This document shows positions 6,263 to 47,917 of a DNA stretch of 64,000 bases, in pieces (the first letter of the stretch is position 1; each line of letters opens with the position of its first letter). Where the stretch lies: positions 116,075 to 180,074 of the forward strand of contig MFCA01000025.1 in assembly GCA_001775095.1 (NCBI GenBank). Direction: 5' to 3'. The translations under genes and the position numbers were made by a program. Below the pieces are notes generated by a model. The model searched no databases. It was not told the DNA's origin and worked only from the letters and a program-made list of their open reading frames with translations. The DNA is from Candidatus Curtissbacteria bacterium RIFOXYA1_FULL_41_14. GTDB taxonomy: Bacteria; Patescibacteriota; Microgenomatia; Curtissbacterales; GWA2-41-24.

Positions 6263-9199
6263 TTAATGAAATATCTCCCTCATTGGTTTTTGCCAAGCAT
6301 TTTTGAGTTTATCTAAATCAAGATTACACAGATTCTTGCTACCACTGAATACACTGATTGTTTTGTCGGCTACTGTTTTTCCAAAAATAGCGTACGGTAT
6401 TCCAGTAAAAAGTTTTTTGGCAATTTGCGGATTTTCAACTTCAACTAAAAATGTTCCGGCTGTTTCAGAAAAAAGGATAAAGTCGGGACGTAGATTCACC
6501 CCCGGGGTGTCCTCATGGTGTCGTCCTGACTTCACCCCGGGGGTGTCAGTCTGGGTGACTACTGAAGACAGGTCGACCTCTGTCCCGCAATTTCCTCCAA
6601 AACACATTTCGGCAAGTGCCGCAGCCAAACCGCCTTCAGATATGTCATGACAGGATAAAATTTGACCTTGTGTTATTCCTTTTGTGACCGAGCCAAAAAC
6701 TTTCGTAAGAGACTTGAGATCAATCTTTGGAATTTCTGGATCTTTCGTGCCGAGAACATCGAAATAAGTAGATCCGCCAAGATTTTTAAAATCAGGTTTA
6801 CCAACTAAAACTATCGTTGATCCTTCTGATTTGAAATCAGAGCTGACTGTTTTTCTAACATCGGGAATTTTGCCAAAGACAGAAATAAGAAGGACAGGTG
6901 GTATCTTGAGAATTTTCCCCGAGGGGTACCTGTAAGTTGACGAAAGACTGTCTTTACCTGAAATAAATGGCATTTTTAAAAGTCTGGCCATATCAGAGCA
7001 GGCATCCACTGACTGGTCTAAGTCAAAAAGTGATTCTTCGTCGGGAAATGGCCAAATGAAATTGTCGATAAGAGCGGCGTTTTTAATATCACCACCGCAG
7101 GAGATGAAATTTGAAACCGCTTCAACAATTGCCCAAATGCTTCCCCCGTATGGATCAATAAGGTTAAGGGTGGGATTTAAACCATGGGTTATTACAACAC
7201 CGTATGGTTTTTTGAGGATTGGTCTAACAATAGTCCCGTCATTGGGTCCGTCTAAATTCACCCCGCTAAATGGATGCAGGGCATTTGTCCCTTGGACATT
7301 GTGGTCATACATTCTGACAATTGGTTCTTTGGAGCAGACATTGCCATGAGAAAGAACCTTCTCAAAAATCTCCTGCCAGTCATCTGCCTTTTTAGGAAGA
7401 GGTGGTAGTTTCTTGTTTCTTGTTTCTCCCGACCTCGTCTCGACTCGGTCGAGGACGGGTTGTTGCTTGTTTCTTGTTGTCTTCATGACTCTTTGAGGTA
7501 GTCCGTGATGTAAAAATTGCATTTCCAGATCACAAACTGGCTTTTTATCAAAAGTAACTCTTAGACGTTTAGAACCGTCGAATTTACCAATTACAGTCGC
7601 CTCAACGTTGTGAAGTTGGCAGATTTGAACAGCCTTTTTGAGATTTTGGGGATCAATTGCTAAAACCATTCGTTCCTGCGATTCGGAAATAAAAATTTCC
7701 CAAGGGGAAAGACCGGAATATTTAAGCGGCGCTTTCTCCAAAAAGACACGGGCGCCGATTTTTTGGCCCATCTCACCGATTGCCGACGAAAATCCACCGG
7801 CTCCGCAATCGGTGATTGCTCTTATTAATCCTTGATCGCGAAGGTCGTAAACTGCATCGATCATTCTTTTTTCCTCAATGGCATTGCCGATCTGAACCGC
7901 TGAACCTAAGACCGTTATTGTCCGATCTGTCATTTCTCCGGAGGAAAAAGTTGCTCCATGGATACCGTCTCGGCCAGTTCTACCCCCGATTGTTACAATT
8001 AGATCCCCTACTTTGGGGAATTGTTTTTTAGCGATTTTTTTGGGGATCAAACCGTAAGAACCGACCCCCACTGTGCATTTGGCGCGAAAATCCGGATGAA
8101 AATGCACGGATCCGTTATTTGTAGGGATGCCTACCCTGTTTCCGTAATCGCGGACTCCGGCAACAACTTTGCGCAGGATGTAGTCGGGAGGTAAACATCC
8201 GGGAGGAATAGATTTTGATGGAAGATCAGGCGGCGCAAAACAAAAAATATCAGTTGATGCGATAATTTTTGCACCTTTACCTGTTCCTAAAACATCACGA
8301 AAAACTCCACCGGAACCGGTCATTGCCCCACCGTACGGTTCAATTGCGCTAGGACTGTTGTGAGTTTCGACTTTGCCGGAAATTGCCCATCCGTCATAGA
8401 AATCAATGACACCGGAGTTATCGACAAATGCCGAAATGATCAGTTTTTTATTGTAGTTTGCTGTTTGCCGAATCCTGTCTATCAAGGGTTTTTTGACTTT
8501 TCCATCAACAATCAATTTTGCTTTGAAAGTCTTGTGGACGCAGTGTTCACTCCAGGTTTGAGCCAGGACTTCAATTTCGCAATCAGTCGGATCACGGCTG
8601 ATTTTGGCAAAATAGTTTTTAATTATCTTCATTTCCTGGCGGTTTAAGAAAAGACGATCTTTGGAAAGTTCCATTAACTGGCTATCTGATAGATTTCGAA
8701 CTGGGATTTTTTCGACTTTACCCTTTTGACCGGAAATCATCAGTGTCTTAGGAGGTTTTTTGACAACTTGTTCGACCGTTTCATTAACCAGAAGCCTATT
8801 CGTTATTATTGAGAGATCTTTGTCTTTCACCTTTCCCCAAAAGGCGTATTCGGTTGAGGTATCGGCAGCAGTCAATTTAATTTTCAAATCAGATGCTGCC
8901 TTGAGGAGCGATCCAACTTCAGGATTCATTACGCCGGGTTTATAGGCGACTTCGATTTTTTTATCGAAGCTGGAGAAAATTGGTTTGTTAAAAGACATTT
9001 GTTGATTAATTGGTTCAAATAAAACAGCTTGAGAAAATTTTTGGGCATCAGAGAAAGAGATTCCTTCAAGGCGGTAGACTTTGGATGAGCGGATATTTTT
9101 GATTGATTTGATGCCAAGCGTCCTTTTAATTTCGGCGAGGAGCTCCTGGCCTTTGGAATCGGTGGGGCTATTTGCAGTAATCCTTATTTCATAAATCAT
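6263..9199 (-). CDS. purL: PurS-PurL fusion: FGAM synthase II with an N-terminal PurS domain, carrying two in-frame repeat insertions
   Basis: First ~80 aa are PurS-like, followed by PurL AIRS/AIRS_C domains. At 978 aa it is ~150 aa longer than PurS+PurL. The extra length includes 'TDTPGVKSGRHHEDTPGV' and 'QQPVLDRVETRSGETRNKK', both encoded by palindromic repeats. Confidence 0.85.
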   Translation of the reverse strand: MIYEIRITANSPTDSKGQELLAEIKRTLGIKSIKNIRSSKVYRLEGISFSDAQKFSQAVLFEPINQQMSFNKPIFSSFDKKIEVAYKPGVMNPEVGSLLKAASDLKIKLTAADTSTEYAFWGKVKDKDLSIITNRLLVNETVEQVVKKPPKTLMISGQKGKVEKIPVRNLSDSQLMELSKDRLFLNRQEMKIIKNYFAKISRDPTDCEIEVLAQTWSEHCVHKTFKAKLIVDGKVKKPLIDRIRQTANYNKKLIISAFVDNSGVIDFYDGWAISGKVETHNSPSAIEPYGGAMTGSGGVFRDVLGTGKGAKIIASTDIFCFAPPDLPSKSIPPGCLPPDYILRKVVAGVRDYGNRVGIPTNNGSVHFHPDFRAKCTVGVGSYGLIPKKIAKKQFPKVGDLIVTIGGRTGRDGIHGATFSSGEMTDRTITVLGSAVQIGNAIEEKRMIDAVYDLRDQGLIRAITDCGAGGFSSAIGEMGQKIGARVFLEKAPLKYSGLSPWEIFISESQERMVLAIDPQNLKKAVQICQLHNVEATVIGKFDGSKRLRVTFDKKPVCDLEMQFLHHGLPQRVMKTTRNKQQPVLDRVETRSGETRNKKLPPLPKKADDWQEIFEKVLSHGNVCSKEPIVRMYDHNVQGTNALHPFSGVNLDGPNDGTIVRPILKKPYGVVITHGLNPTLNLIDPYGGSIWAIVEAVSNFISCGGDIKNAALIDNFIWPFPDEESLFDLDQSVDACSDMARLLKMPFISGKDSLSSTYRYPSGKILKIPPVLLISVFGKIPDVRKTVSSDFKSEGSTIVLVGKPDFKNLGGSTYFDVLGTKDPEIPKIDLKSLTKVFGSVTKGITQGQILSCHDISEGGLAAALAEMCFGGNCGTEVDLSSVVTQTDTPGVKSGRHHEDTPGVNLRPDFILFSETAGTFLVEVENPQIAKKLFTGIPYAIFGKTVADKTISVFSGSKNLCNLDLDKLKNAWQKPMREIFH

Positions 9200-13374: not shown

Positions 13375-13474
13375 TTGTCCTTCAGTATATCAGGAAGCCC
13401 ATTCAAGCGAAAGCTTGAAGCGCAATCTCGCCCTCCAAGAGACACACCCGGTGTGTGCTCGGATGGGACTTGGC

Positions 13475-14488
13475 TCACACCGGGTGCGAAACAAGTTTTT
13501 TCAACTCTTGCTGCCAGTTGGGTTTTGAAATATCAAAAAGCCTAATTTTGGGAAACTTTTTAAACCAGGTTTTTTGGCGTCTGATAAAACTATGAACGTT
13601 GCCTCTTAGGCGGTTAATCGCTTCTCTCTGACTGATTTTGCCCGAAAGGTATCTTGATATCCAGCGACATTCAAGGCCAAGATCATCAAGCCACTGGGGG
13701 CTAACCCTTTTCTCTAGAAGTGTTTGAACTTCTTCAATCATTCCGTGCTCCAATCGTTCCTCAAGCCATTTATCAGCGCGGCTGTAAAGATAATTGTTTG
13801 GTGCGGTTAAGCCGATGATTTGATATTCCCCATCAAGCGACACACCCGGTGTGCGCTTTGACGCGACCCCGCTCACACCGGGTGTGAGATAGGAAGCGCG
13901 AGCGATTTCAATCGCGCGAATCAAGCGTCTTGGGTTTTGACGATCCGACTCATTCATACTCTTCGCTCTTTTTGGATCAATCTTTTCAAGTTTTTGATAA
14001 AGATGATCAATCGATAATTTCTCAAGCTCTCGGCGAAGTGTTAAGTCAGAAGGAATGCCGACTGATCCAATTCCATCGAGCAATGCTTTAATATAAAATC
14101 CTGTACCGCCCACTACAATCGGTAATTTCTTTGATACTATGATTTGAATCATAGTATCAGAAGCAAATTTTAAAAAATCTGATACCGAAAAAATTCCTTG
14201 CTCCGAACCCGGTTCGCGCAAAGATCCATCTGGGCTCGAATCGGGTTCGTATCTGGGTGGTTCCACAAGGTCGAAGCCGTGGATTTTGACACCATCGACA
14301 ATCCAGAAACCTTTGTGCTTTTCGACTTTTGATTTGAAGGAGGCTTTACCTGTTGTGATATCAAGATTCTGATATACCTGTCTTGAATCGGCTGAAATAA
14401 GTTCACCCTGAAACTTGCGTGCAAGTTGAAGGGCTAAGGCAGTTTTACCTGTTGCTGTCGGTCCATAAATAATCAATCTCTTTTTCAT
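13475..14488 (-). CDS. miaA: tRNA dimethylallyltransferase, with in-frame palindromic-repeat insertions
   Basis: P-loop 'GPTATGKT' and IPPT core. About 30 aa longer than typical MiaA. Carries a repeated 'TPGVS' peptide encoded by GC-rich palindromes. Confidence 0.85.
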   Translation of the reverse strand: MKKRLIIYGPTATGKTALALQLARKFQGELISADSRQVYQNLDITTGKASFKSKVEKHKGFWIVDGVKIHGFDLVEPPRYEPDSSPDGSLREPGSEQGIFSVSDFLKFASDTMIQIIVSKKLPIVVGGTGFYIKALLDGIGSVGIPSDLTLRRELEKLSIDHLYQKLEKIDPKRAKSMNESDRQNPRRLIRAIEIARASYLTPGVSGVASKRTPGVSLDGEYQIIGLTAPNNYLYSRADKWLEERLEHGMIEEVQTLLEKRVSPQWLDDLGLECRWISRYLSGKISQREAINRLRGNVHSFIRRQKTWFKKFPKIRLFDISKPNWQQELKKLVSHPV

Positions 14489-22472: not shown

Positions 22473-23747
22473 TTAGTGAACGGCACTTCGAGGATTACCT
22501 TTGTGATTAATTAGCTTATCAAGGATCTGGAAGCGGCGCTGTTTTTCTTTGTAGGAAACATCATCGTCAAACGCTTTCGCAGCGGCAGTATTTGGTCGAG
22601 GGGAGTATTTGGCAATATAAGCATAGGCAAAATTAACTGTTTGAGCTAACTTAACTGTGTTTTGAAAATTTCTTTCGCTTTCTTGGCAAAAGCCGACAAT
22701 AATATCTGTCGAAATCTGAGTGTCGGGAATCTCCTTTCTGATTTTTTTGACCAAATTGATATACTGGCTCGCTGTATACCATCTATTCATTTTTTTAAGC
22801 ATTTGGTCATCTCCGGACTGAACAGGCAGATGAATGTTTCTGTCAATTTTGGGATTTTTGGAGATTGTCTCGATGAGCTCATCGGAAAAATCCCAGGGAT
22901 TTGAAGAAATGAATTTAACCGTTTCAACTCCCCCACTTCGTCCGGCTTTGCCGGACTTCGAGGGGCAAGCTTCTATTTTGCAAACTTCTTCAAGAAGATA
23001 AGGAAACAATGTTGGAATTCGCAATTTTCCCAAATGCTTTACCATCACCGGTTTAACTACTCGACCATTAGGAAGCTTATAACCGGCTTTTGTATTTTTG
23101 ACTCGATCAGATCCATATGAATTAACATTTTGGCCAAGGAGGGTAATTTCTCGGCATCCTCTTTCCGCCAGTTCTTTGACTTCATCGATAACATCTTCAA
23201 ATGGCCTTGATACTTCTTGCCCTCTGGTAAAAGGTACGACGCAATAAGTACAAAAATTATTGCAGCCGTTGGAAATTGGTATCCAAGCATGAGTTGCGTC
23301 ACTTCGAAGTGCCGGATAATTAAAACCAACCTCTTCCAGAGGTAAAAATTCATCAACTTGGGGTATTCTCTTGTGAAGAGTATTAAGATACTTACCACTC
23401 GTGTCCCTGGCGACCATTCCAGTCATGCAGCCGGTAAGAACAATTTTAGGCCTCCGGCCCGGTCTCCGACGTAGAGACGTCTCTGACTCGGAACGAGGGC
23501 CTCCGGCCCGGTGGGCCTCTTTGATAATATTTCTGATAAATCCGGTCACTTTATCTTCTGCAGATTGACGGACCATGCAGGTGTTGATGATTATTTCAGA
23601 AGCTGATTTGAGATCCTTTGCCCTTTTAAAACCCCTTGCCAAATAGTAACTGGCAATTCTTTGGCTATCTGCCCAGTTTTGCTGGCAACCGAAAGTTTTG
23701 ATGTAAAATGTAGGAGATTTCATTGTTAAATTGTTAAATACGCACAA
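22473..23747 (-). CDS. radical-SAM methylthiotransferase (MiaB/RimO family), with two in-frame GC-rich repeat insertions
   Basis: N-terminal MTTase 'KTFGCQQNWADSQ', radical SAM core and TRAM-like C-terminus. Insertion peptides are 'RAGGPRSESETSLRRRPGRRP' and 'CPSKSGKAGRSGG'. Confidence 0.7.
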   Translation of the reverse strand: MCVFNNLTMKSPTFYIKTFGCQQNWADSQRIASYYLARGFKRAKDLKSASEIIINTCMVRQSAEDKVTGFIRNIIKEAHRAGGPRSESETSLRRRPGRRPKIVLTGCMTGMVARDTSGKYLNTLHKRIPQVDEFLPLEEVGFNYPALRSDATHAWIPISNGCNNFCTYCVVPFTRGQEVSRPFEDVIDEVKELAERGCREITLLGQNVNSYGSDRVKNTKAGYKLPNGRVVKPVMVKHLGKLRIPTLFPYLLEEVCKIEACPSKSGKAGRSGGVETVKFISSNPWDFSDELIETISKNPKIDRNIHLPVQSGDDQMLKKMNRWYTASQYINLVKKIRKEIPDTQISTDIIVGFCQESERNFQNTVKLAQTVNFAYAYIAKYSPRPNTAAAKAFDDDVSYKEKQRRFQILDKLINHKGNPRSAVH

Positions 23748-24245: not shown

Positions 24246-25031
24246 CTATGTGGAAATAGACGAATATCTTCTAAGAGCAAAATGCCAAAATTTGATGCCT
24301 ATTCCAAAAAAAGTTAGACCGATAGCAAAAGAAATCAATATCCACTGCCAGGATAAAATTCCGAGAAGCACTTTGGCAGGAATCGAAACCATTACCGCAA
24401 TTGGGATAATAAAGGTTAAAACAAATTGGACTAGTGATGAATAAATATCAACAGGGAACCGCCCCATTGTCATTAAATCCCGATAAACCCAAATTTCGGA
24501 AGAGATTTCTTGAGTCAGAATAGAAAGGGCGATAATAACAACATGGATGGAGAAAGCGATTAGAAGTGCATTGAAGCAGAGAAGCAAATAGAAAATAAAG
24601 TTATAAAAAGTGATGGATGTTTCCAGTCTCGCAACGATTATTCCTAAAACTATTACCACTGGTACTAAAGTGGCTAAATCCAGAAGGTCAATAATATCTG
24701 AAACAATTCTAAATAATGTGTTTACCGGCTGAGTAAGAATATAATCTATTTCTCCTTTATTAATCATCCAGCCAATCGCATATGCACTCCTTAGGAAAAA
24801 CTGACTTACGATATCAATTAAATTGAATGTCATAAAAAAAAGTAAGGTTTGATAGAGGCTAAACCCGGCCAAGGTTTGGGTTTTGGTTAAAAGGGCAATA
24901 ATAAAAATAAAAAAGAAAGAGAAACGAATTAACTTTCCTGAAATCAAAAATATTGAATGGAGACGCGATTCAATGTAATATTCACGAAATCTCATCTTGG
25001 CTAATCTCGTCCATACTCGTAGGTATTTCAT
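24246..25031 (-). CDS. ABC-2 type transporter permease
   Basis: 6-TM ABC-2 topology. Start trimmed to 'MKYLRV' because the upstream codons are two palindromic repeats. Confidence 0.55.
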   Translation of the reverse strand: MKYLRVWTRLAKMRFREYYIESRLHSIFLISGKLIRFSFFFIFIIALLTKTQTLAGFSLYQTLLFFMTFNLIDIVSQFFLRSAYAIGWMINKGEIDYILTQPVNTLFRIVSDIIDLLDLATLVPVVIVLGIIVARLETSITFYNFIFYLLLCFNALLIAFSIHVVIIALSILTQEISSEIWVYRDLMTMGRFPVDIYSSLVQFVLTFIIPIAVMVSIPAKVLLGILSWQWILISFAIGLTFFGIGIKFWHFALRRYSSIST

Positions 25032-25134
25032 AATTTGAAATTCCTGCCTGCCGGCAGGCAGGTGCAATTTGACATTTGAAATTCCCGGCCTTGTCTCGAC
25101 TTTGTCGAGGACGGGTTGAAATTTGAAATTGATA

Positions 25135-25932
25135 TTAGCCTCCCCAGGCTTCATAAGCTTTTAAGCCTTTGTTCCAAACAAATTTTGTAACTGAAAAAAC
25201 CGCAAAAAGCCAAAGTGTTGAGATCAAGATTACCCGAATCGACTCAATATATGATAATTTACCAAGAAAAATACTGATCGGATAATATAAAAGATAAGGA
25301 AATGGGGTTAGTTTGATAACAGATTGAATGGTAGCTGGCAATACATCCAACGGAAAATAAGCGCCTGCTGAAAATTCCAGTATCAAGAGCATCATAAATT
25401 GTAAGCCCCAGACTTGAGGGGTCCAAAATCCCGTCGTTGACACTAAGATACCCATGTAAAAATAAATTAAAATTGCAATAAAGGTTGCTAGCAAAAATAA
25501 CAAAAAAGTTAATATTCCTGCCGGTTGAACAAAAGGAATTTGGAAAAAAATAGTTGGAATAATAATTATTAGAATAATTGAAACCAGGCTAGTTAATTTA
25601 TAGACTAAATCAACGGTAAACCAATAGGAAAAATAACCAATCGGTTTTAATAAGTAAGAGAAAAATTTTCCCCATGATTGTAGTTCCTGAGCAATCTGAT
25701 CAGTCGCGCTGATAATTACAAATTGGCGAAGAATAGTCGCTAAGAATACATAAGTAATAATCTGTTCCCTGTCAAAATTAAAAAGAATTATTCTTGTCTT
25801 AAAAACTTGTGTCCAAAGAAAATATAAAGTGATCAAAAGTAAAATAGCCCGAAATTGACTAATTAAATATTCCCAGCGGTAAACAAGAACATTAGCAAAT
25901 GTGATTCGCGCGACTGCGAGATATTTCCTCAT
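25135..25932 (-). CDS. ABC-2 type transporter permease
   Basis: 6-TM permease overlapping the ATPase gene. Confidence 0.6.
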   Translation of the reverse strand: MRKYLAVARITFANVLVYRWEYLISQFRAILLLITLYFLWTQVFKTRIILFNFDREQIITYVFLATILRQFVIISATDQIAQELQSWGKFFSYLLKPIGYFSYWFTVDLVYKLTSLVSIILIIIIPTIFFQIPFVQPAGILTFLLFLLATFIAILIYFYMGILVSTTGFWTPQVWGLQFMMLLILEFSAGAYFPLDVLPATIQSVIKLTPFPYLLYYPISIFLGKLSYIESIRVILISTLWLFAVFSVTKFVWNKGLKAYEAWGG

Positions 25933-32987: not shown

Positions 32988-33471
32988 TTTTTGATTTTCG
33001 CGGATTTGTAGCGGATTTTCGCTGATTTTTGGTCGTCGCAGAGGACACAGAGGCTCTTTGCTTTTTCTTAATTCTCTGTGCCTTCTTTTTATTCTCTGTG
33101 TTTTCTGTGATCCCTTCTTTCCAGTCTAAAAGCTCAATTCTGGCCATTGGGGCATTATCTCCGCGCCTGGGACCCATTTTAGTAATCCTTGTAAATCCGG
33201 ATGTCCTATTCTCGTAAAGCCCTTTGGCCTGTTTAAATAGACTTTTAAATGCCTGGCTGGTTAATTTAGACGCCAGTAGTCTATTTGAGCTAAGGCGATT
33301 CTTTTTCGCTTCTGTTACTAATTTCTCAACCTGAGACCTGGCAAATTTAGCCTTCGCCAGGGTGGTATTAATAGAACCATTTACAAACAGGGAGCTTGTT
33401 AAATTACCAAGCAGCGCGTGTCTCGCGTTAGTGTCCCTGTTAAGCTTACGTCCAAATCTTGCGTGCCTCAC
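32974..33471 (-). CDS. rplQ: 50S ribosomal protein L17, with basic C-terminal extension
   Basis: 'MRHARFGRKLNRDTNARHALL'. Confidence 0.85.
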   Translation of the reverse strand: MRHARFGRKLNRDTNARHALLGNLTSSLFVNGSINTTLAKAKFARSQVEKLVTEAKKNRLSSNRLLASKLTSQAFKSLFKQAKGLYENRTSGFTRITKMGPRRGDNAPMARIELLDWKEGITENTENKKKAQRIKKKQRASVSSATTKNQRKSATNPRKSKNEKH

Positions 33472-39822: not shown

Positions 39823-40179
39823 TTAAAAATTTAATCCTCCCTTCCTTGCGCCTTCGGCTAGTGATTTAACTCTTCCATGGTACTTAAAACCGCCACGGTC
39901 AAAAATAACCTTTTTGATGTTTTTTTTGGTTGCCTCTTTTGCCAAATTGGCACCAACCTCAAAAGCTTTATTTAACTTACTAGCTTTTTTACTAGCGTCA
40001 GCAGGTAAATCCATGTCTGATGAAGCAACAACTGTCACTTTTGAAACATCATCGACTAGTTGTGCATAAATATATTTGTTAGAACGAAATACAGCCAGTC
40101 TGAGTACTTTAGGTGAGCCCATTATTTTTTTTCTTACTCTTTTGTGTTTTAAGATCCTCTGTGATTTCTTATTTATCAT
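39823..40179 (-). CDS. rplR: 50S ribosomal protein L18
   Basis: L18 family, conserved position. Confidence 0.85.
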   Translation of the reverse strand: MINKKSQRILKHKRVRKKIMGSPKVLRLAVFRSNKYIYAQLVDDVSKVTVVASSDMDLPADASKKASKLNKAFEVGANLAKEATKKNIKKVIFDRGGFKYHGRVKSLAEGARKGGLNF

Positions 40180-45908: not shown

Positions 45909-46271
45909 TTACCCTCGGCTTTTTTGTATATCTTTCTCTTTGCCTTTATCTTTGTCTTTTTGTTTTTTACCTTTTGTTTCTGATTTTGGCATAAGCATAG
46001 CAATCGTTTGCCCTGATTTAAGATAAACAATTGCCTTTTTGCCGCCGCCGGTCTTTACTTGCTTTCGAGTCTTGGCAACTCTTTTAGTCTTTGGTGCAAT
46101 ATTGGTCATATTTACTCGCATAACATCGACACCGAACTGAGAAAAAACCTGTTTTGCTACCGCGTTTTTGGTTGCCTGCGTTACCACTAGAAAAGTATAA
46201 ATACCTTTCTCCATCTGCTTATAAGCTTTTTCCGAAAGTATGGCTTTTTTGATAACACTTTTTAATTTCAT
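45909..46271 (-). CDS. rplW: 50S ribosomal protein L23, with Lys-rich C-terminal tail
   Basis: L23 family. Confidence 0.85.
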   Translation of the reverse strand: MKLKSVIKKAILSEKAYKQMEKGIYTFLVVTQATKNAVAKQVFSQFGVDVMRVNMTNIAPKTKRVAKTRKQVKTGGGKKAIVYLKSGQTIAMLMPKSETKGKKQKDKDKGKEKDIQKSRG

Positions 46272-47110
46272 TTAGCGACTCCTATTGCCTCTTTGGATAG
46301 CAATATATTTCTATTCTTAATAATTTCGAAGGCATTGAGATTGGCCATACGACTGACTAGTATTCTCTGAATATTTCGCGTCGCCAGTTTCACATCTTGT
46401 CCATTGTTTACCGGTTTGTCGGAAATTACTAAAAGACAATTTCCTTGTAAATCTAATTTTTTAAGTAAACTTGCAATAATTTTCGTCTTAGCTTGAATTT
46501 TTTCGATATTAGTAATTACTTTGACACTTCCTTCTTGGGCTTTTAATGAAAATGCACTCACCAGAGCCTTTCTTTTCATTTTCTTAGGCAAAGTTAAAGT
46601 TACCTTTCTGAATTTAGGGCCATGGGCAACACCTCCGCCTACCCAAAGCGGTGAGCGGATTGATCCTGCGCGGGCTCTGCCAGTGCCTTTTTGGCGCCAG
46701 GGCTTGCGGCCCCCGCCTCTTGTCTGGGAACGAGTTTTTGTAGAACCCGCGTGAACTGACTGGTTTACCGAATAGATGCGAATTGCCTGGGCTAAAAGCT
46801 TTTCGTTTGGCTTTTGACCGAAAATTTCGCGAGGAAGAGCAACTTTGCCAATAGATCGGCCGTTTATGTCAAAAGCAGGAGCCAAAAGTCCTCCACCAGC
46901 GGATTTAACCTGCCTGCCGGCAGGCAGGCTCTTGACGGTTTTTGTCTTTCTCGGTGCCTTCTGTTTATCTTCTGTGCCTTCTGTGATTATCTTTTTATCC
47001 ACGATCTTAGAACTGGTCTTCGATCTAATTTTGACCTGTTTAGATTTTGCTATCTTTGTTATTTTTTTTGCTGCTGCCATAATTATTTCTCTTGAAACCA
47101 CTGAGAGCAC
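46268..47110 (-). CDS. rplD: 50S ribosomal protein L4, with ~75-aa N-terminal extension containing an in-frame palindromic repeat ('LPAGRQ')
   Basis: L4 core begins near 'FDINGRSIGKVALP'. The extension contains 'CTGCCTGCCGGCAGGCAGG'. Confidence 0.8.
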   Translation of the reverse strand: MLSVVSREIIMAAAKKITKIAKSKQVKIRSKTSSKIVDKKIITEGTEDKQKAPRKTKTVKSLPAGRQVKSAGGGLLAPAFDINGRSIGKVALPREIFGQKPNEKLLAQAIRIYSVNQSVHAGSTKTRSQTRGGGRKPWRQKGTGRARAGSIRSPLWVGGGVAHGPKFRKVTLTLPKKMKRKALVSAFSLKAQEGSVKVITNIEKIQAKTKIIASLLKKLDLQGNCLLVISDKPVNNGQDVKLATRNIQRILVSRMANLNAFEIIKNRNILLSKEAIGVAK

Positions 47111-47137
47111 TGAACGTTACTGAATACACTGAAATAT

Positions 47138-47917
47138 TTATTCAGTGGTTTCAGGTCTTTTCTCAGTGACTTCAGTGGTTACAGGCTTTGTCCCTTCTGT
47201 TCCTTTTGTTTTCTCTGATACTTCTGATACCTGTGATGCTTCTTCTTTTGTCTCCTCTTCTTCTTTCTCCTTAGGAGGTGGAGGAGGTGTGTATCCCTTT
47301 ACCTTTCCAGTTTTCTTAATAACCAAAAGGCCATTTATCGCACCGGGAACTGAACCCTTGACTAAAAGTAGATTTTTACCAGGATCAACTTCAATAACTT
47401 CAAGACCACCAATTGTTAATTTTGAAACGCCCATATGACCAGCCATCTTTTTACCCTTAAACACTCTTCCAGGGGTGGTAGTTTGTCCGATCGATCCCGG
47501 TGCCCGATGGCGGTCGGATTGCCCGTGAGTTTTTGGACCCCCTGCAAATCCCCATCTTTTGACTACCCCTGCAAATCCTTTCCCTTTCGTAATACCTGTC
47601 ACTTTAACTTGATCTCCAGGTTCAAAAATTGAAACCGTTAGCTTTTCACCGGCGCAGTATTTTGACGATTGATCTTCCAATGGTTTGACTACTAGTACTT
47701 CTTTGACAACTCTTGGGGCAAATCCGCAAATCTTTACAAACGCATTTTCGGTTTTTTTAACTTTTTTCTTCTTCCCAAACCCCAGTTGTACCCGATCGTC
47801 GCGAGTTCCTAAAATAATATTAGGTTCGGCCACTACCTGAGTTACCGGAATGCGATGACCAAATTGGTCAAACCGGACTGACATTTCCTTTTTTAAACCG
47901 ATCAATGTATTAATCAT
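47138..47917 (-). CDS. rplC: 50S ribosomal protein L3, with Pro/Glu/Lys-rich C-terminal extension
   Basis: Start set at 'MINTLIGLKKEMSVRF'. ~50-aa low-complexity tail. Confidence 0.85.
   Translation of the reverse strand: MINTLIGLKKEMSVRFDQFGHRIPVTQVVAEPNIILGTRDDRVQLGFGKKKKVKKTENAFVKICGFAPRVVKEVLVVKPLEDQSSKYCAGEKLTVSIFEPGDQVKVTGITKGKGFAGVVKRWGFAGGPKTHGQSDRHRAPGSIGQTTTPGRVFKGKKMAGHMGVSKLTIGGLEVIEVDPGKNLLLVKGSVPGAINGLLVIKKTGKVKGYTPPPPPKEKEEEETKEEASQVSEVSEKTKGTEGTKPVTTEVTEKRPETTE

What the first reader, a model, noticed from the sequence alone, without database searches (positions are those of the whole stretch)
46909..46930. Perfect palindrome CTGCCTGCCGGCAGGCAG in the N-terminal extension of L4 and again at an ABC-permease start
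The 20-bp palindrome is translated in frame as 'LPAGRQ' within a ~75-aa N-terminal extension of rplD. An identical copy sits at 25043..25062, directly abutting the start region of the ABC-2 permease. There it would read 'HLPAGRQ' if the long ORF were used. A third repeat family colonising a ribosomal protein gene suggests a general tolerance of, or use for, such elements.
Basis: seen in the sequence. Interest (0 to 1): 0.55.

Follow-up and report, generated by a model that had tools for sequence, protein, structure and literature searches.

The report
Tiny palindromic insert inside ribosomal protein L4
A 20-base GC-rich perfect palindrome, found letter for letter in bacteria of many phyla, was inserted in frame as 7 extra amino acids into the floppy N-terminal tail of ribosomal protein L4 of a Curtissbacteria (CPR) genome. 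A second copy lies untranslated between two transporter genes, so it behaves like a very small selfish DNA insert, not like a gene signal.

Summary
CCTGCCTGCCGGCAGGCAGG occurs exactly at 46909-46928 and 25043-25062 (2 hits against 0.01 expected).

**L4 copy.** Genes here are on the minus strand. Four relatives lack exactly 21 nt at this spot, so the palindrome is a derived in-frame insertion giving LPAGRQV (uL4 residues 52-58). It lies in a K/S/T-rich tail that is general in Curtissbacteria. In four sequenced relatives the tail keeps its frame: all indels are multiples of 3 and the L3 stop abuts the L4 ATG. It evolves almost freely and is predicted disordered. The rival downstream TTG start, used by one public annotation, is not conserved.

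**ABC copy.** This copy is not translated. It lies 11 nt upstream of the conserved ATG, in a 103-nt repeat-built spacer. The spacer separates two genes that abut in a relative.

**Wider distribution.** The exact 20-mer occurs in at least 120 stretches of species-representative genomes from many phyla and in 35 stretches of viral contigs. Two matched control palindromes gave 0. It has no conserved flanks and no recurrent neighbouring gene. It also sits in frame inside FtsK, GatB, RfbB and ScpB domains, almost always reading LPAGRQ.

**Best reading.** It is a minimal REP/RPE/GC-cluster-like palindromic insert tolerated in permissive sites. How it spreads is unknown.

The parts
46909..46928 (.). 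Copy 1 of the 20-bp perfect palindrome CCTGCCTGCCGGCAGGCAGG, inside the uL4 reading frame.
   Evidence: The RNA hairpin is -17.7 kcal/mol.
46907..46927 (-). The 21 nt (codons 52-58, LPAGRQV) that are absent from four relatives. Equivalently this is the palindrome plus one T, 46908-46928.
   Evidence: Alignment A2: GTCAAGAG|TAAATCC in L001 against GTCAAGAG[CCTGCCTGCCGGCAGGCAGGT]TAAATCC in the window; L238, L002 and L239 have the same 21-nt gap with slightly different flanks. Proteins P0125 and P0054 lack the 7 residues.
46886..47080 (-). N-terminal K/S/T-rich extension of uL4, from the ATG at 47080-47078 up to the conserved core.
   Evidence: The extension is present in most of 120 Curtissbacteria homologues. 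Indels are 3, 21, 15, 12 and 3 nt, and substitutions are spread evenly over codon positions. pLDDT is below 55 with no secondary structure for residues 1-64.
46268..47080 (-). rplD (uL4), 270 aa. It is identical to P0121, Candidatus Curtissbacteria bacterium GW2011_GWA1_40_47 and others.
46883..46894 (-). GGAGGA followed 3 nt later by TTG. This is the alternative internal start used by the 205-aa public annotation (P0122).
   Evidence: The TTG is TCG in L001 and absent in L002 and L239.
47081..47137 (-). 57-nt L3-L4 spacer. It is part of a 59-nt AT-rich inverted repeat (47092-47150) that also supplies the L3 stop codon.
   Evidence: In relatives the L3 stop is 2 nt (1 nt in L239) before the L4 ATG.
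25043..25062 (.). Copy 2 of the palindrome. It is intergenic, 11 nt upstream of the permease ATG.
   Evidence: The RNA hairpin is -15 kcal/mol.
25032..25134 (-). 103-nt spacer between two ABC-2 permease genes. It is built of AATTTCAAAT motifs and two GC-rich palindromes.
   Evidence: In L245 the stop and the ATG abut (TAGATG). L244 has a 59-nt spacer holding other hairpins.
25083..25118 (.). A second, unrelated GC-rich palindrome in the same spacer. Its sister copy at 7427-7462 lies in frame in the PurL-like ORF.
   Evidence: (family D9).
24246..25031 (-). ABC-2 permease gene, 261 aa, starting MKYLRVW.
   Evidence: Pfam ABC2_membrane_6. Homologues are mostly 249-265 aa and most cover the 261-aa query in full.
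25135..25932 (-). Upstream ABC-2 permease gene of the same operon, with stop TAA at 25135-25137.

Best explanation
Both sites hold copies of one very small GC-rich palindromic insert: a 20-bp core, often flanked A...T to give 22 bp. It behaves as selfish or passenger DNA, not as a signal of either gene.

**L4 copy.** In rplD it arrived as a 21-nt insertion, the palindrome plus one T. It landed in the lysine-rich, disordered, fast-evolving N-terminal tail of uL4 and is translated as LPAGRQV. It survives because it keeps the frame, contains no stop in any frame, and sits in a segment with almost no constraint on residue identity.

**ABC copy.** In the ABC operon it is one module of a 103-nt block of repeats. 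That block has pushed apart two permease genes that were once translationally coupled. This copy is transcribed but not translated.

**Shown here:** the insertion and its exact size; the frame-keeping of the tail; the intergenic position of copy 2; the cross-phylum spread; the LPAGRQ frame bias inside real genes.

**Inferred:** that the tail is translated in this particular strain; that the element is neutral there; and how it moves. For movement my preferred guess is a trans-acting enzyme working on DNA hairpins that leaves no target duplication, like the IS200/IS605 and REP-associated Y1 transposases. A second guess is capture of a short self-complementary duplex at DNA breaks.
For: **Insertion.** Relatives L238 (P0125, 87% identical overall), L001, L002 and L239 all lack the same 21 nt.

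**The tail is coding.**
- K/S/T-rich extensions of about 20-115 aa occur in most of 120 homologues.
- All five indels in the tail are multiples of 3.
- The L3 stop lies 1-2 nt before the L4 ATG in four relatives.
- The internal TTG is lost in L001, L002 and L239.

**The tail is permissive.**
- Substitutions are 16, 13 and 17 of 58 at codon positions 1, 2 and 3, against 1, 1 and 2 of 27 in the core.
- AlphaFold2 gives pLDDT below 55 and no secondary structure for residues 1-64.
- Other palindromes sit in frame in the tails of L242 and L243.

**Copy 2 is intergenic.**

**It is an element, not chance.**
- At least 120 stretches in species-representative genomes of CPR lineages, Bacteroidota (including cultured isolates), Omnitrophota, Planctomycetes, proteobacterial groups, Chloroflexi and others.
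- 35 stretches in viral contigs, against 0 for two matched control palindromes.
- No conserved flanks and no recurrent neighbouring gene.

**In frame in real domains elsewhere.** FtsK, GatB, RfbB, ScpB, PMT_2 and a Sortilin/BNR protein all read LPAGRQ. That makes 7 of 8 Pfam-confirmed cases in one frame, P about 0.008.

**Mostly no target duplication.** 145 of 164 distinct copies have 0-1 nt of abutting repeat.
Against: - No transposase or any other mobility gene is linked to it. None appeared in the 30 window ORFs scanned with Pfam, and none recurs next to the 155 fetched copies.
- Only 2 copies lie in 64 kb, and the genome-wide count is unknown.
- Junctions are heterogeneous: a clean +21 nt in L4, 21 nt replacing 9 nt in GatB, and 7-, 8- or 14-nt abutting repeats in 7 copies. 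One simple transposition chemistry does not explain all of these.
- In this strain the L3 stop has moved 57 nt away from the L4 ATG. The sequence before the ATG is only AAGAG, while GGAGGA precedes the internal TTG. A downstream start is therefore not excluded here.
- The collection scans were for exact matches only, so divergent copies were not seen.
Confidence: 0.72

Rival explanations
1. uL4 of this strain starts at the TTG at 46885-46883, after GGAGGA. The upstream 195 nt are then a leader, and the palindrome is a 5'-UTR hairpin that could tune L4 or S10-operon expression.
For: - GGAGGA lies 3 nt before the TTG.
- NCBI annotates a 205-aa product from the same sequence (P0122).
- In this strain L3 ends 57 nt before the ATG, and the sequence preceding the ATG is weak (AAGAG) compared with GAGGAG in relatives.
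- The hairpin is stable, at -17.7 kcal/mol.
Against: - The TTG is TCG in L001 and absent in L002 and L239, which still keep the long open frame.
- All indels in the tail are multiples of 3, including the 21-nt insert itself.
- The tail is general in the clade and starts right after the L3 stop in relatives.
- No Rfam leader family matches.
- The same 20-mer sits inside enzyme domains in other genomes, so it needs no leader role.
Confidence: 0.13
2. The palindrome is a functional cis-element selected at both sites. It could be an operator for a dimeric DNA-binding protein, an mRNA-stabilising or processing hairpin, or a terminator or attenuator inside operons.
For: - The sequence is kept exactly across phyla.
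- Both window copies lie inside operons.
- Copy 2 sits 11 nt before a start codon, and its 3' arm (AGGCAGGAA) is the only Shine-Dalgarno-like sequence there.
- It forms a stable hairpin.
Against: - There is no U-tract, and the terminator scan does not flag it.
- Its positions relative to genes are inconsistent. It lies in intergenic DNA, inside FtsK, GatB, RfbB and ScpB domains, in tRNA-like fragments, nested in other palindromes and nested in itself.
- No gene recurs next to it.
- Close relatives do without it at both window sites.
Confidence: 0.08
3. The two copies are a coincidence, a by-product of simple (CCTG)n sequence, or an assembly or sequencing artefact.
For: The sequence is internally repetitive: (CCTG)2CC followed by its complement. 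Most carriers are metagenome-assembled genomes.
Against: - 2 hits against 0.01 expected in the window.
- The inside-out palindrome GGCAGGCAGGCCTGCCTGCC and the permuted CCGTCCGTCCGGACGGACGG give 0 hits where the real one gives 35 stretches.
- It is present in cultured isolates: Winogradskyella, Flagellimonas, Longitalea and Flavivirga.
- The identical L4 protein carrying the insert was seen on 61 contigs from several sources.
Confidence: 0.02

Closest known systems
Rickettsia palindromic elements (RPEs)
   Same: Both are palindromic repeats that insert in frame into unrelated, often essential, protein-coding genes, and also into intergenic DNA, without destroying the products. They are usually read as selfish DNA tolerated at permissive protein sites (review PMC10969869).
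   Different: RPEs are about 100-150 bp, fall into genus-restricted families and encode a sizeable conserved peptide. The present element is 20-22 bp (7 residues), has no sequence similarity to RPEs, and the identical sequence occurs in many phyla and in viral contigs.
GC clusters of yeast and fungal mitochondrial genomes
   Same: Both are short GC-rich palindromes scattered through a more AT-rich genome, mostly intergenic. GC clusters are also found as in-frame insertions in the ribosomal protein gene var1, form mergers and tandem arrays, and in Neurospora are associated with tRNA genes (PMC8811140 and references cited there). Here the palindrome is in frame in uL4, nested in other palindromes and in itself, next to tRNA-like fragments, and in a 21-nt tandem array in L156.
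   Different: GC clusters are organellar, about 30-50 bp, highly variable in sequence, and usually carry AG/TAG terminal repeats read as target duplications. This element is bacterial or viral, invariant in its 20-bp core, and 145 of 164 copies show 0-1 nt of duplication. No translational bypass is needed, because the insert keeps the frame.
REP (repetitive extragenic palindromic) sequences and their RAYT (Y1 HUH) transposases
   Same: Size class (21-65 nt), hairpin shape, occurrence singly or in clusters with other palindromes in short intergenic spacers of operons, and no target-site duplication.
   Different: REPs are extragenic, imperfect, carry a conserved GTAG-type head, are specific to a species or genus, and co-occur with a RAYT gene. 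Here the core is perfect, there is no conserved head, copies lie inside genes, the same sequence crosses phyla, and no Y1 transposase was seen in the window or near other copies.
MITEs
   Same: Both are small non-autonomous repeats made essentially of two inverted arms, and both are capable of in-frame fusions.
   Different: MITEs have terminal inverted repeats around an internal segment, a fixed-length target duplication and a parent IS. This element is only 2 x 10 bp, usually without duplication, and has no identifiable parent.

Membership tests
REP / RAYT system | Short (about 20-65 nt) palindromic repeat able to form a hairpin. | tested here: met
   20-bp perfect palindrome. The RNA hairpin is -15 to -17.7 kcal/mol.
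REP / RAYT system | Extragenic location. | tested here: not met
   Copy 1 lies inside the uL4 frame. Other copies lie inside FtsK, GatB, RfbB and ScpB domains.
REP / RAYT system | Conserved GTAG-like tetranucleotide head next to the palindrome. | tested here: not met
   Flank composition over 125 copies shows only a weak preference for A at position -1 (103 of 250) and no conserved tetranucleotide.
REP / RAYT system | Cognate Y1 (HUH) transposase gene in the genome, typically flanked by the repeats. | tested here: inconclusive
   None among the 30 window ORFs scanned with Pfam. No recurrent gene family appears beside 155 PAL-bearing loci. The rest of the genome could not be searched.
REP / RAYT system | Tens to hundreds of copies per genome, restricted to a species or genus. 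| tested here: inconclusive
   2 copies in 64 kb, and the genome-wide count is not available. The restriction part is not met, because the identical 20-mer occurs in many phyla.
Rickettsia palindromic elements | In-frame insertion into protein-coding genes, with the product retained. | tested here: met
   21-nt in-frame insertion in uL4. In-frame copies in six Pfam-confirmed genes elsewhere.
Rickettsia palindromic elements | Element of about 100-150 bp belonging to the RPE sequence families of Rickettsia. | tested here: not met
   The element is 20-22 bp in a Curtissbacteria genome, with no conserved flanks beyond the core.
MITE | Terminal inverted repeats flanked by a fixed-length target-site duplication. 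| tested here: not met
   The L4 insertion has no duplication. 145 of 164 copies have 0-1 nt of abutting repeat, and only 7 have 7, 8 or 14 nt.
Intrinsic (Rho-independent) terminator | GC-rich hairpin followed by a U-tract. | tested here: not met
   The terminator scan of 24700-25500 does not flag copy 2. Copy 1 is followed by UUAAAUCCGC.
Ribosomal-protein leader (L4/S10-type autoregulatory RNA) | Match to a described leader RNA family, located in an untranslated leader. | tested here: not met
   The Rfam gathering-threshold scan of the window finds only one tRNA. Comparative evidence shows the region to be coding.
Mitochondrial GC clusters | GC-rich palindrome in a more AT-rich genome, intergenic or in frame in genes, prone to nesting and tandem arrays. 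| tested here: met
   The window is 35-45% GC and the element 80% GC. For nesting and arrays. This shows it works like a GC cluster, not that it is homologous to one.
Mitochondrial GC clusters | Organellar origin, with AG/TAG terminal repeats. | tested here: not met
   The hosts are bacteria and viruses, and there is no such terminal repeat.

The most novel reading that the evidence does not exclude
The 20-22-bp palindrome is a previously undescribed kind of minimal mobile DNA. It has no gene of its own, no conserved flanks and usually no target duplication. One exact sequence has been exchanged among many bacterial phyla and their viruses. It inserts into hairpin loops, tRNA-like sequences and essential genes, where selection keeps the Cys-free LPAGRQ frame, so it would be a steady source of 7-residue insertions in proteins. 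Its movement would depend on a widely shared host or phage enzyme, or on break repair.
Probability: 0.3. Interest if true: 0.8.

Novelty: new variant of a known kind. Interest (0 to 1): 0.6.

Why it matters
**For this genome.** The work settles a real annotation conflict. Public records give 205, 270 or 280 aa for the same uL4 gene. It also shows that the long ORF at the ABC permease is an artefact of stop-free repeats.

**More generally.**
- Ribosomal-protein tails in CPR bacteria act as landing pads for GC-rich palindromes.
- Such inserts reach into catalytic domains of housekeeping enzymes, as RPEs do in Rickettsia and GC clusters do in yeast mitochondria.
- One exact 20-mer is shared across phyla and viruses with no associated gene. 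No mechanism I know of explains this. If it is mobile, it would be among the smallest mobile DNA units known, and a useful marker of DNA exchange between CPR bacteria, their hosts and phages.
- It is also a practical warning for gene callers. These repeats have no stop codon in any frame, so they extend ORFs artificially.

Tried and rejected
- **Metagenome scan for L4 relatives.** It returned mostly distant L4 genes (35-45% identity) and none carried the palindrome. The useful empty sites came from exact-protein look-ups instead.
- **All-against-all BLAST of 3223 ORFs from 155 palindrome-bearing loci.** No family recurs beyond related phage contigs, so the idea that the palindrome is the end of a larger element or sits beside its transposase was dropped.
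- **Simple-sequence origin.** Rejected by the two control palindromes.
- **Terminator and leader-RNA readings.** Rejected.
- **Functional tRNAs carrying the palindrome in the D-loop.** ARAGORN restores no tRNA across the junction when the palindrome is removed. These are tRNA 5' fragments, and in two loci they lie next to an intact tRNA. Only L147 is called, as a 92-nt tRNA-Met with the palindrome as an extra arm.
- **Other repeats of this window in viral contigs.** The 25083-type palindrome gave 0 stretches and the GTCATTCTGAG type gave 2, so the wide spread is particular to this 20-mer.
- **Literature.** A full-text search for the sequence found nothing. Searches for in-frame palindromes in CPR and for CPR uL4 extensions found nothing specific.
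- **Fixed 7-bp target duplication.** Considered because 5 copies have exactly 7 abutting nt, but 145 of 164 have 0-1 nt, so it is not the rule.
Full report
**1. The observation**

The 20-bp perfect palindrome CCTGCCTGCCGGCAGGCAGG is present at window 46909-46928 and at 25043-25062. A search for the 18-mer core with up to 3 mismatches returns only these two sites, against 0.01 expected from dinucleotide-preserving shuffles. At the L4 site the symmetry extends to 46907-46930 with 11 of 12 pairs. The window has 35-45% GC, so an 80% GC palindrome stands out.

All relevant genes are on the minus strand. L4 hits place the window in Candidatus Curtissbacteria (CPR, Microgenomates). The uL4 translation is identical to P0121, which sources name as uL4 of Curtissbacteria bacterium GW2011_GWA1_40_47 and others, seen on 61 contigs.

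**2. The L4 copy is a derived 21-nt in-frame insertion**

The ORF 46268-47080 (ATG, 270 aa) reads ...KTKTVKS-LPAGRQV-KSAGGGLLAPAFDING....

- The closest relatives lack these seven residues. They are P0125/P0126/P0130, which share a 90% cluster with the window protein (P0125 is 87% identical overall), and P0054.
- At the DNA level, L001 reads GTCAAGAG|TAAATCC where the window reads GTCAAGAG[CCTGCCTGCCGGCAGGCAGGT]TAAATCC, and L238, L002 and L239 share the same 21-nt gap with slightly different flanks.
- The insert is therefore the palindrome plus one T. It makes up codons 52-58 and has no target duplication.

**3. Is the tail translated?**

Evidence for translation:
- Most of 120 Curtissbacteria uL4 homologues carry a K/S/T-rich N-terminal extension of about 20-115 residues before the conserved FD(I/L)xG...LPKEIFGQ core.
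- In relatives L001, L002, L238 and L239 the L3 stop codon lies 1-2 nt before the ATG of this extension. That is the arrangement expected for coupled genes of the S10 operon.
- Within the extension every indel among five sequences is a multiple of three: 3, 21, 15, 12 and 3 nt.
- Substitutions are spread evenly over codon positions. Window against L238 gives 16, 13 and 17 of 58, whereas the adjacent core gives 1, 1 and 2 of 27 and is third-position-biased in the more distant pairs.
- The frame and the composition are therefore kept while residue identity is nearly free. This is the behaviour of a disordered tail.
- AlphaFold2 with a 40-sequence alignment agrees. pLDDT is below 55 with no secondary structure for residues 1-64, which include the insert. 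From residue 65 the fold is confident, except for the long loop at residues 121-150.

The rival start:
- It is TTG at 46885-46883, 3 nt after GGAGGA.
- The 205-aa NCBI annotation P0122 uses it for what is evidently the same sequence, while other sources or 280 aa.
- This TTG is TCG in L001 and absent in L002 and L239, which nevertheless keep the long frame.

I conclude that the tail is translated in the clade and probably in this strain.

The caveat is specific to this strain:
- A 59-nt AT-rich inverted repeat (47092-47150, -18.2 kcal/mol) has been inserted at the L3/L4 junction.
- It supplies the L3 stop and leaves 57 nt before an ATG preceded only by AAGAG.
- A contribution from the internal start therefore cannot be excluded without peptide data.

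**4. The ABC-site copy is intergenic**

- The long ORF 24246-25154 that would read HLPAGRQ overlaps the upstream gene.
- Its first 41 codons consist only of repeats.
- The Pfam ABC2_membrane_6 match begins at residue 80 of that ORF.
- Homologues are mostly 249-265 aa, and most cover in full the 261-aa product that starts at ATG 25031-25029 (MKYLRVW). The 302-aa form occurs only as a call on the same sequence.
- In relative L245 the two permease genes abut (GGAGGATAGATG), with the Shine-Dalgarno sequence inside the upstream gene.
- L244 has a 59-nt spacer that shares the AATTTCAAATTTCA motif but holds different hairpins.
- The window has 103 nt (25032-25134) made of AATTTCAAAT motifs, the palindrome 25083-25118 and our 20-mer, which lies 11 nt before the ATG.
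- Compared with L244, the 20-mer looks like an insertion of about 20 nt without duplication.
- It is not followed by a U-tract and is not flagged as a terminator.

**5. What the 20-mer is**

Distribution:
- Carriers include many CPR lineages, Bacteroidota (with cultured Winogradskyella, Flagellimonas, Longitalea and Flavivirga), Omnitrophota, Planctomycetes, Gamma- and Deltaproteobacteria, Bdellovibrionales, Thermodesulfovibrionales and Chloroflexi.
- IMG/VR holds 35 stretches.
- The inside-out palindrome and a permuted palindrome of the same composition give none.

Flanks and neighbours:
- Flanks are not conserved beyond a preference for A...T, which extends the palindrome to 22 bp in 33 of 125 copies.
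- No protein family recurs next to it.

Position:
- Most copies are intergenic, often among other GC-rich hairpins.
- Several lie deep inside Pfam-confirmed domains: FtsK_SpoIIIE (L015), GatB_N (L106), the dTDP-glucose dehydratase type (L023), ScpB (L055), PMT_2 (L073) and a Sortilin/BNR protein (L016).
- Counting uL4, 7 of 8 such cases use the frame LPAGRQ and not the two Cys-containing frames, P about 0.008.
- The palindrome has no stop codon in any frame.

Junctions:
- In GatB the palindrome-bearing 21 nt replace 9 nt of the closest relatives, a net +12 nt. Junctions are therefore not uniform, and only frame-keeping outcomes are seen in genes.
- Among 164 distinct copies, 145 have 0-1 nt of abutting repeat.
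- Five have exactly 7 nt, one has 8 and one has 14, where 0.02 copies with 7 nt are expected.
- Flanks share direct words of at least 7 nt in 16.5% of copies against 2.3% in permutations. They share inverted words in 9.1% against 2.5%.

Nesting and unusual contexts:
- Some copies are nested in the loops of other palindromes (L051, L093, L021, L069) or within the palindrome itself (L020, L044).
- The 20-mer also interrupts D-arm-like sequences of tRNA 5' fragments, and forms an extra arm in a 92-nt tRNA-Met call in L147.

**6. Context in this genome**

Other GC-rich palindromes are in frame in genes of the same window:
- 23449-23508 in the MiaB-like gene, inside its UPF0004 domain.
- 13829-13887 in the MiaA-like gene, inside IPPT.
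- 7427-7462 in the PurL-like gene.

L4 tails of other Curtissbacteria hold yet other palindromes in frame (L242, L243). No transposase, integrase or Y1 HUH domain was found in the 30 non-ribosomal ORFs of the window that I scanned.

**7. Interpretation**

The simplest account is a minimal selfish palindromic insert. It lands widely and persists where it does little harm. In uL4 that place is a disordered, unconstrained tail, where the 21-nt form keeps the frame. In the ABC operon it is a spacer already built of such modules. I found no sign that either gene uses it.

The mode of spread is not established. The lack of target duplication, the hairpin shape and the nesting in hairpin loops recall enzymes that act on single-stranded hairpins (IS200/IS605, REP/RAYT; established knowledge). 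The mixed junctions (clean, small deletion, variable duplication) would also fit capture of a short self-complementary duplex at breaks. Both ideas are inferences.

**8. Comparison with known systems**

- **RPEs.** It works like Rickettsia palindromic elements in making in-frame insertions in essential genes.
- **GC clusters.** It also works like the GC clusters of yeast mitochondria. These are GC-rich palindromes in an AT-rich genome and include in-frame insertions in the ribosomal protein gene var1.
- **REPs.** It is in the size class of REPs.
- **Where membership fails.** It fails defining features of each family: element size and host range for RPEs, extragenic location and a GTAG head for REPs, a fixed target duplication for MITEs, and an organellar host with AG/TAG repeats for GC clusters. 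I therefore file it as a new variant of this general kind, not as a member of any of them.
- **Literature.** I found no paper containing the sequence. The searched library lacks most subscription-journal papers, so a prior description cannot be excluded.

**9. Verdict**

- The suggestion that the ABC copy might be read as HLPAGRQ is rejected.
- The unexpected part is the cross-phylum, gene-less distribution of one exact 20-mer and its frame-biased presence inside housekeeping proteins.
- Interest is 0.6.

Noticed in passing
window 47092-47150 (minus strand): A 59-nt AT-rich inverted repeat (GAAACCACTGA...TCAGTGGTTTC, -18.2 kcal/mol) lies at the L3/L4 junction. It supplies the L3 stop codon and moves the L4 ATG 57 nt away. 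It is absent from four relatives, where the L3 stop and the L4 ATG are 1-2 nt apart.
   Followed up: partly
window 23449-23508: A 60-nt GC-rich palindrome lies in frame inside the MiaB-like radical-SAM gene (22473-23747, minus strand). It reads RAGGPRSESETSLRRRPGRRP and sits within the UPF0004 domain.
   Followed up: partly
window 7427-7462 and 25083-25118: Two copies (89% identical) of another GC-rich palindrome (core CCCGTCCTCGAC, 3 nt, GTCGAGAC). One is in frame in the PurL-like ORF, reads QPVLDRVETRSG and is flanked by direct repeats ACAAGAAACAAG. The other lies beside the 20-mer in the ABC spacer, flanked by AATTTCAAAT. An exact scan of viral contigs found none.
   Followed up: partly
window 13431-13489 and 13829-13887: A 59-nt repeat pair rich in CACACCCGGTGTG. 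The second copy is in frame inside the IPPT domain of the MiaA-like gene (13475-14488, minus strand).
   Followed up: no
L242 680-745; L243 315-395: The uL4 N-terminal tails of other Curtissbacteria contain different GC-rich palindromes in frame (gtcattgcgagcgaag...gcaatc, gtcattcccgcaaaagcgggaatc). They are translated as SLRAKRSNL, VIPAKAGIQ and IATTRKTGLAMT. The tail is thus a recurrent landing pad.
   Followed up: partly
window 46883-47110 (public proteins P0121, P0122, P0123): Public databases annotate the same uL4 gene with three different starts: 270 aa (ATG), 280 aa (GTG) and 205 aa (TTG after GGAGGA).
   Followed up: yes
L106 3773 (Shapirobacteria GatB) against L240 and L241: The palindrome-bearing 21 nt replace 9 nt (GGTCAAACT) of the closest relatives, a net +12 nt. 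This junction type differs from the clean insertion in uL4.
   Followed up: yes
L017, L032, L039, L087, L101, L154; L124 and L147: The 20-mer interrupts D-arm-like sequences of tRNA 5' fragments. In L017 and L032 these lie 30-65 nt from an intact tRNA. In two related viral contigs (L124, L147) the 20-mer follows the anticodon arm of a tRNA-Met-like sequence; only L147 is called by ARAGORN, as a 92-nt tRNA-Met with the 20-mer as an extra arm.
   Followed up: partly
L156 3916-4125: A tandem array of ten 21-nt units (CCATGCCTACCGGCAGGCAGG, a 2-mismatch variant plus 1 nt) lies at the end of a viral contig. Its 21-nt period equals the size of the uL4 insert.
   Followed up: no
window 46950-46982, 33054-33106, 40137-40169: A 33-nt direct-repeat family (CTCTGTGCCTTCT...) links the uL4 tail (ITEGTEDKQKAPRK; a KK-ITEGTE-K-KAQK motif recurs in many Curtissbacteria uL4 tails) with the region of the L17 C-terminal tail and with the 5' end of another ribosomal-protein ORF.
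   Followed up: no
PAL-bearing loci, e.g. L103 1815, L084 346, L131 8396, L141 3391: In some genomes the 20-mer is embedded in short tandem heptamer repeats (aattacg, tctaaaa, tctcgtc). This gives exact 7- or 14-nt abutting direct repeats. It is not clear whether these are target duplications or slippage products.
   Followed up: partly
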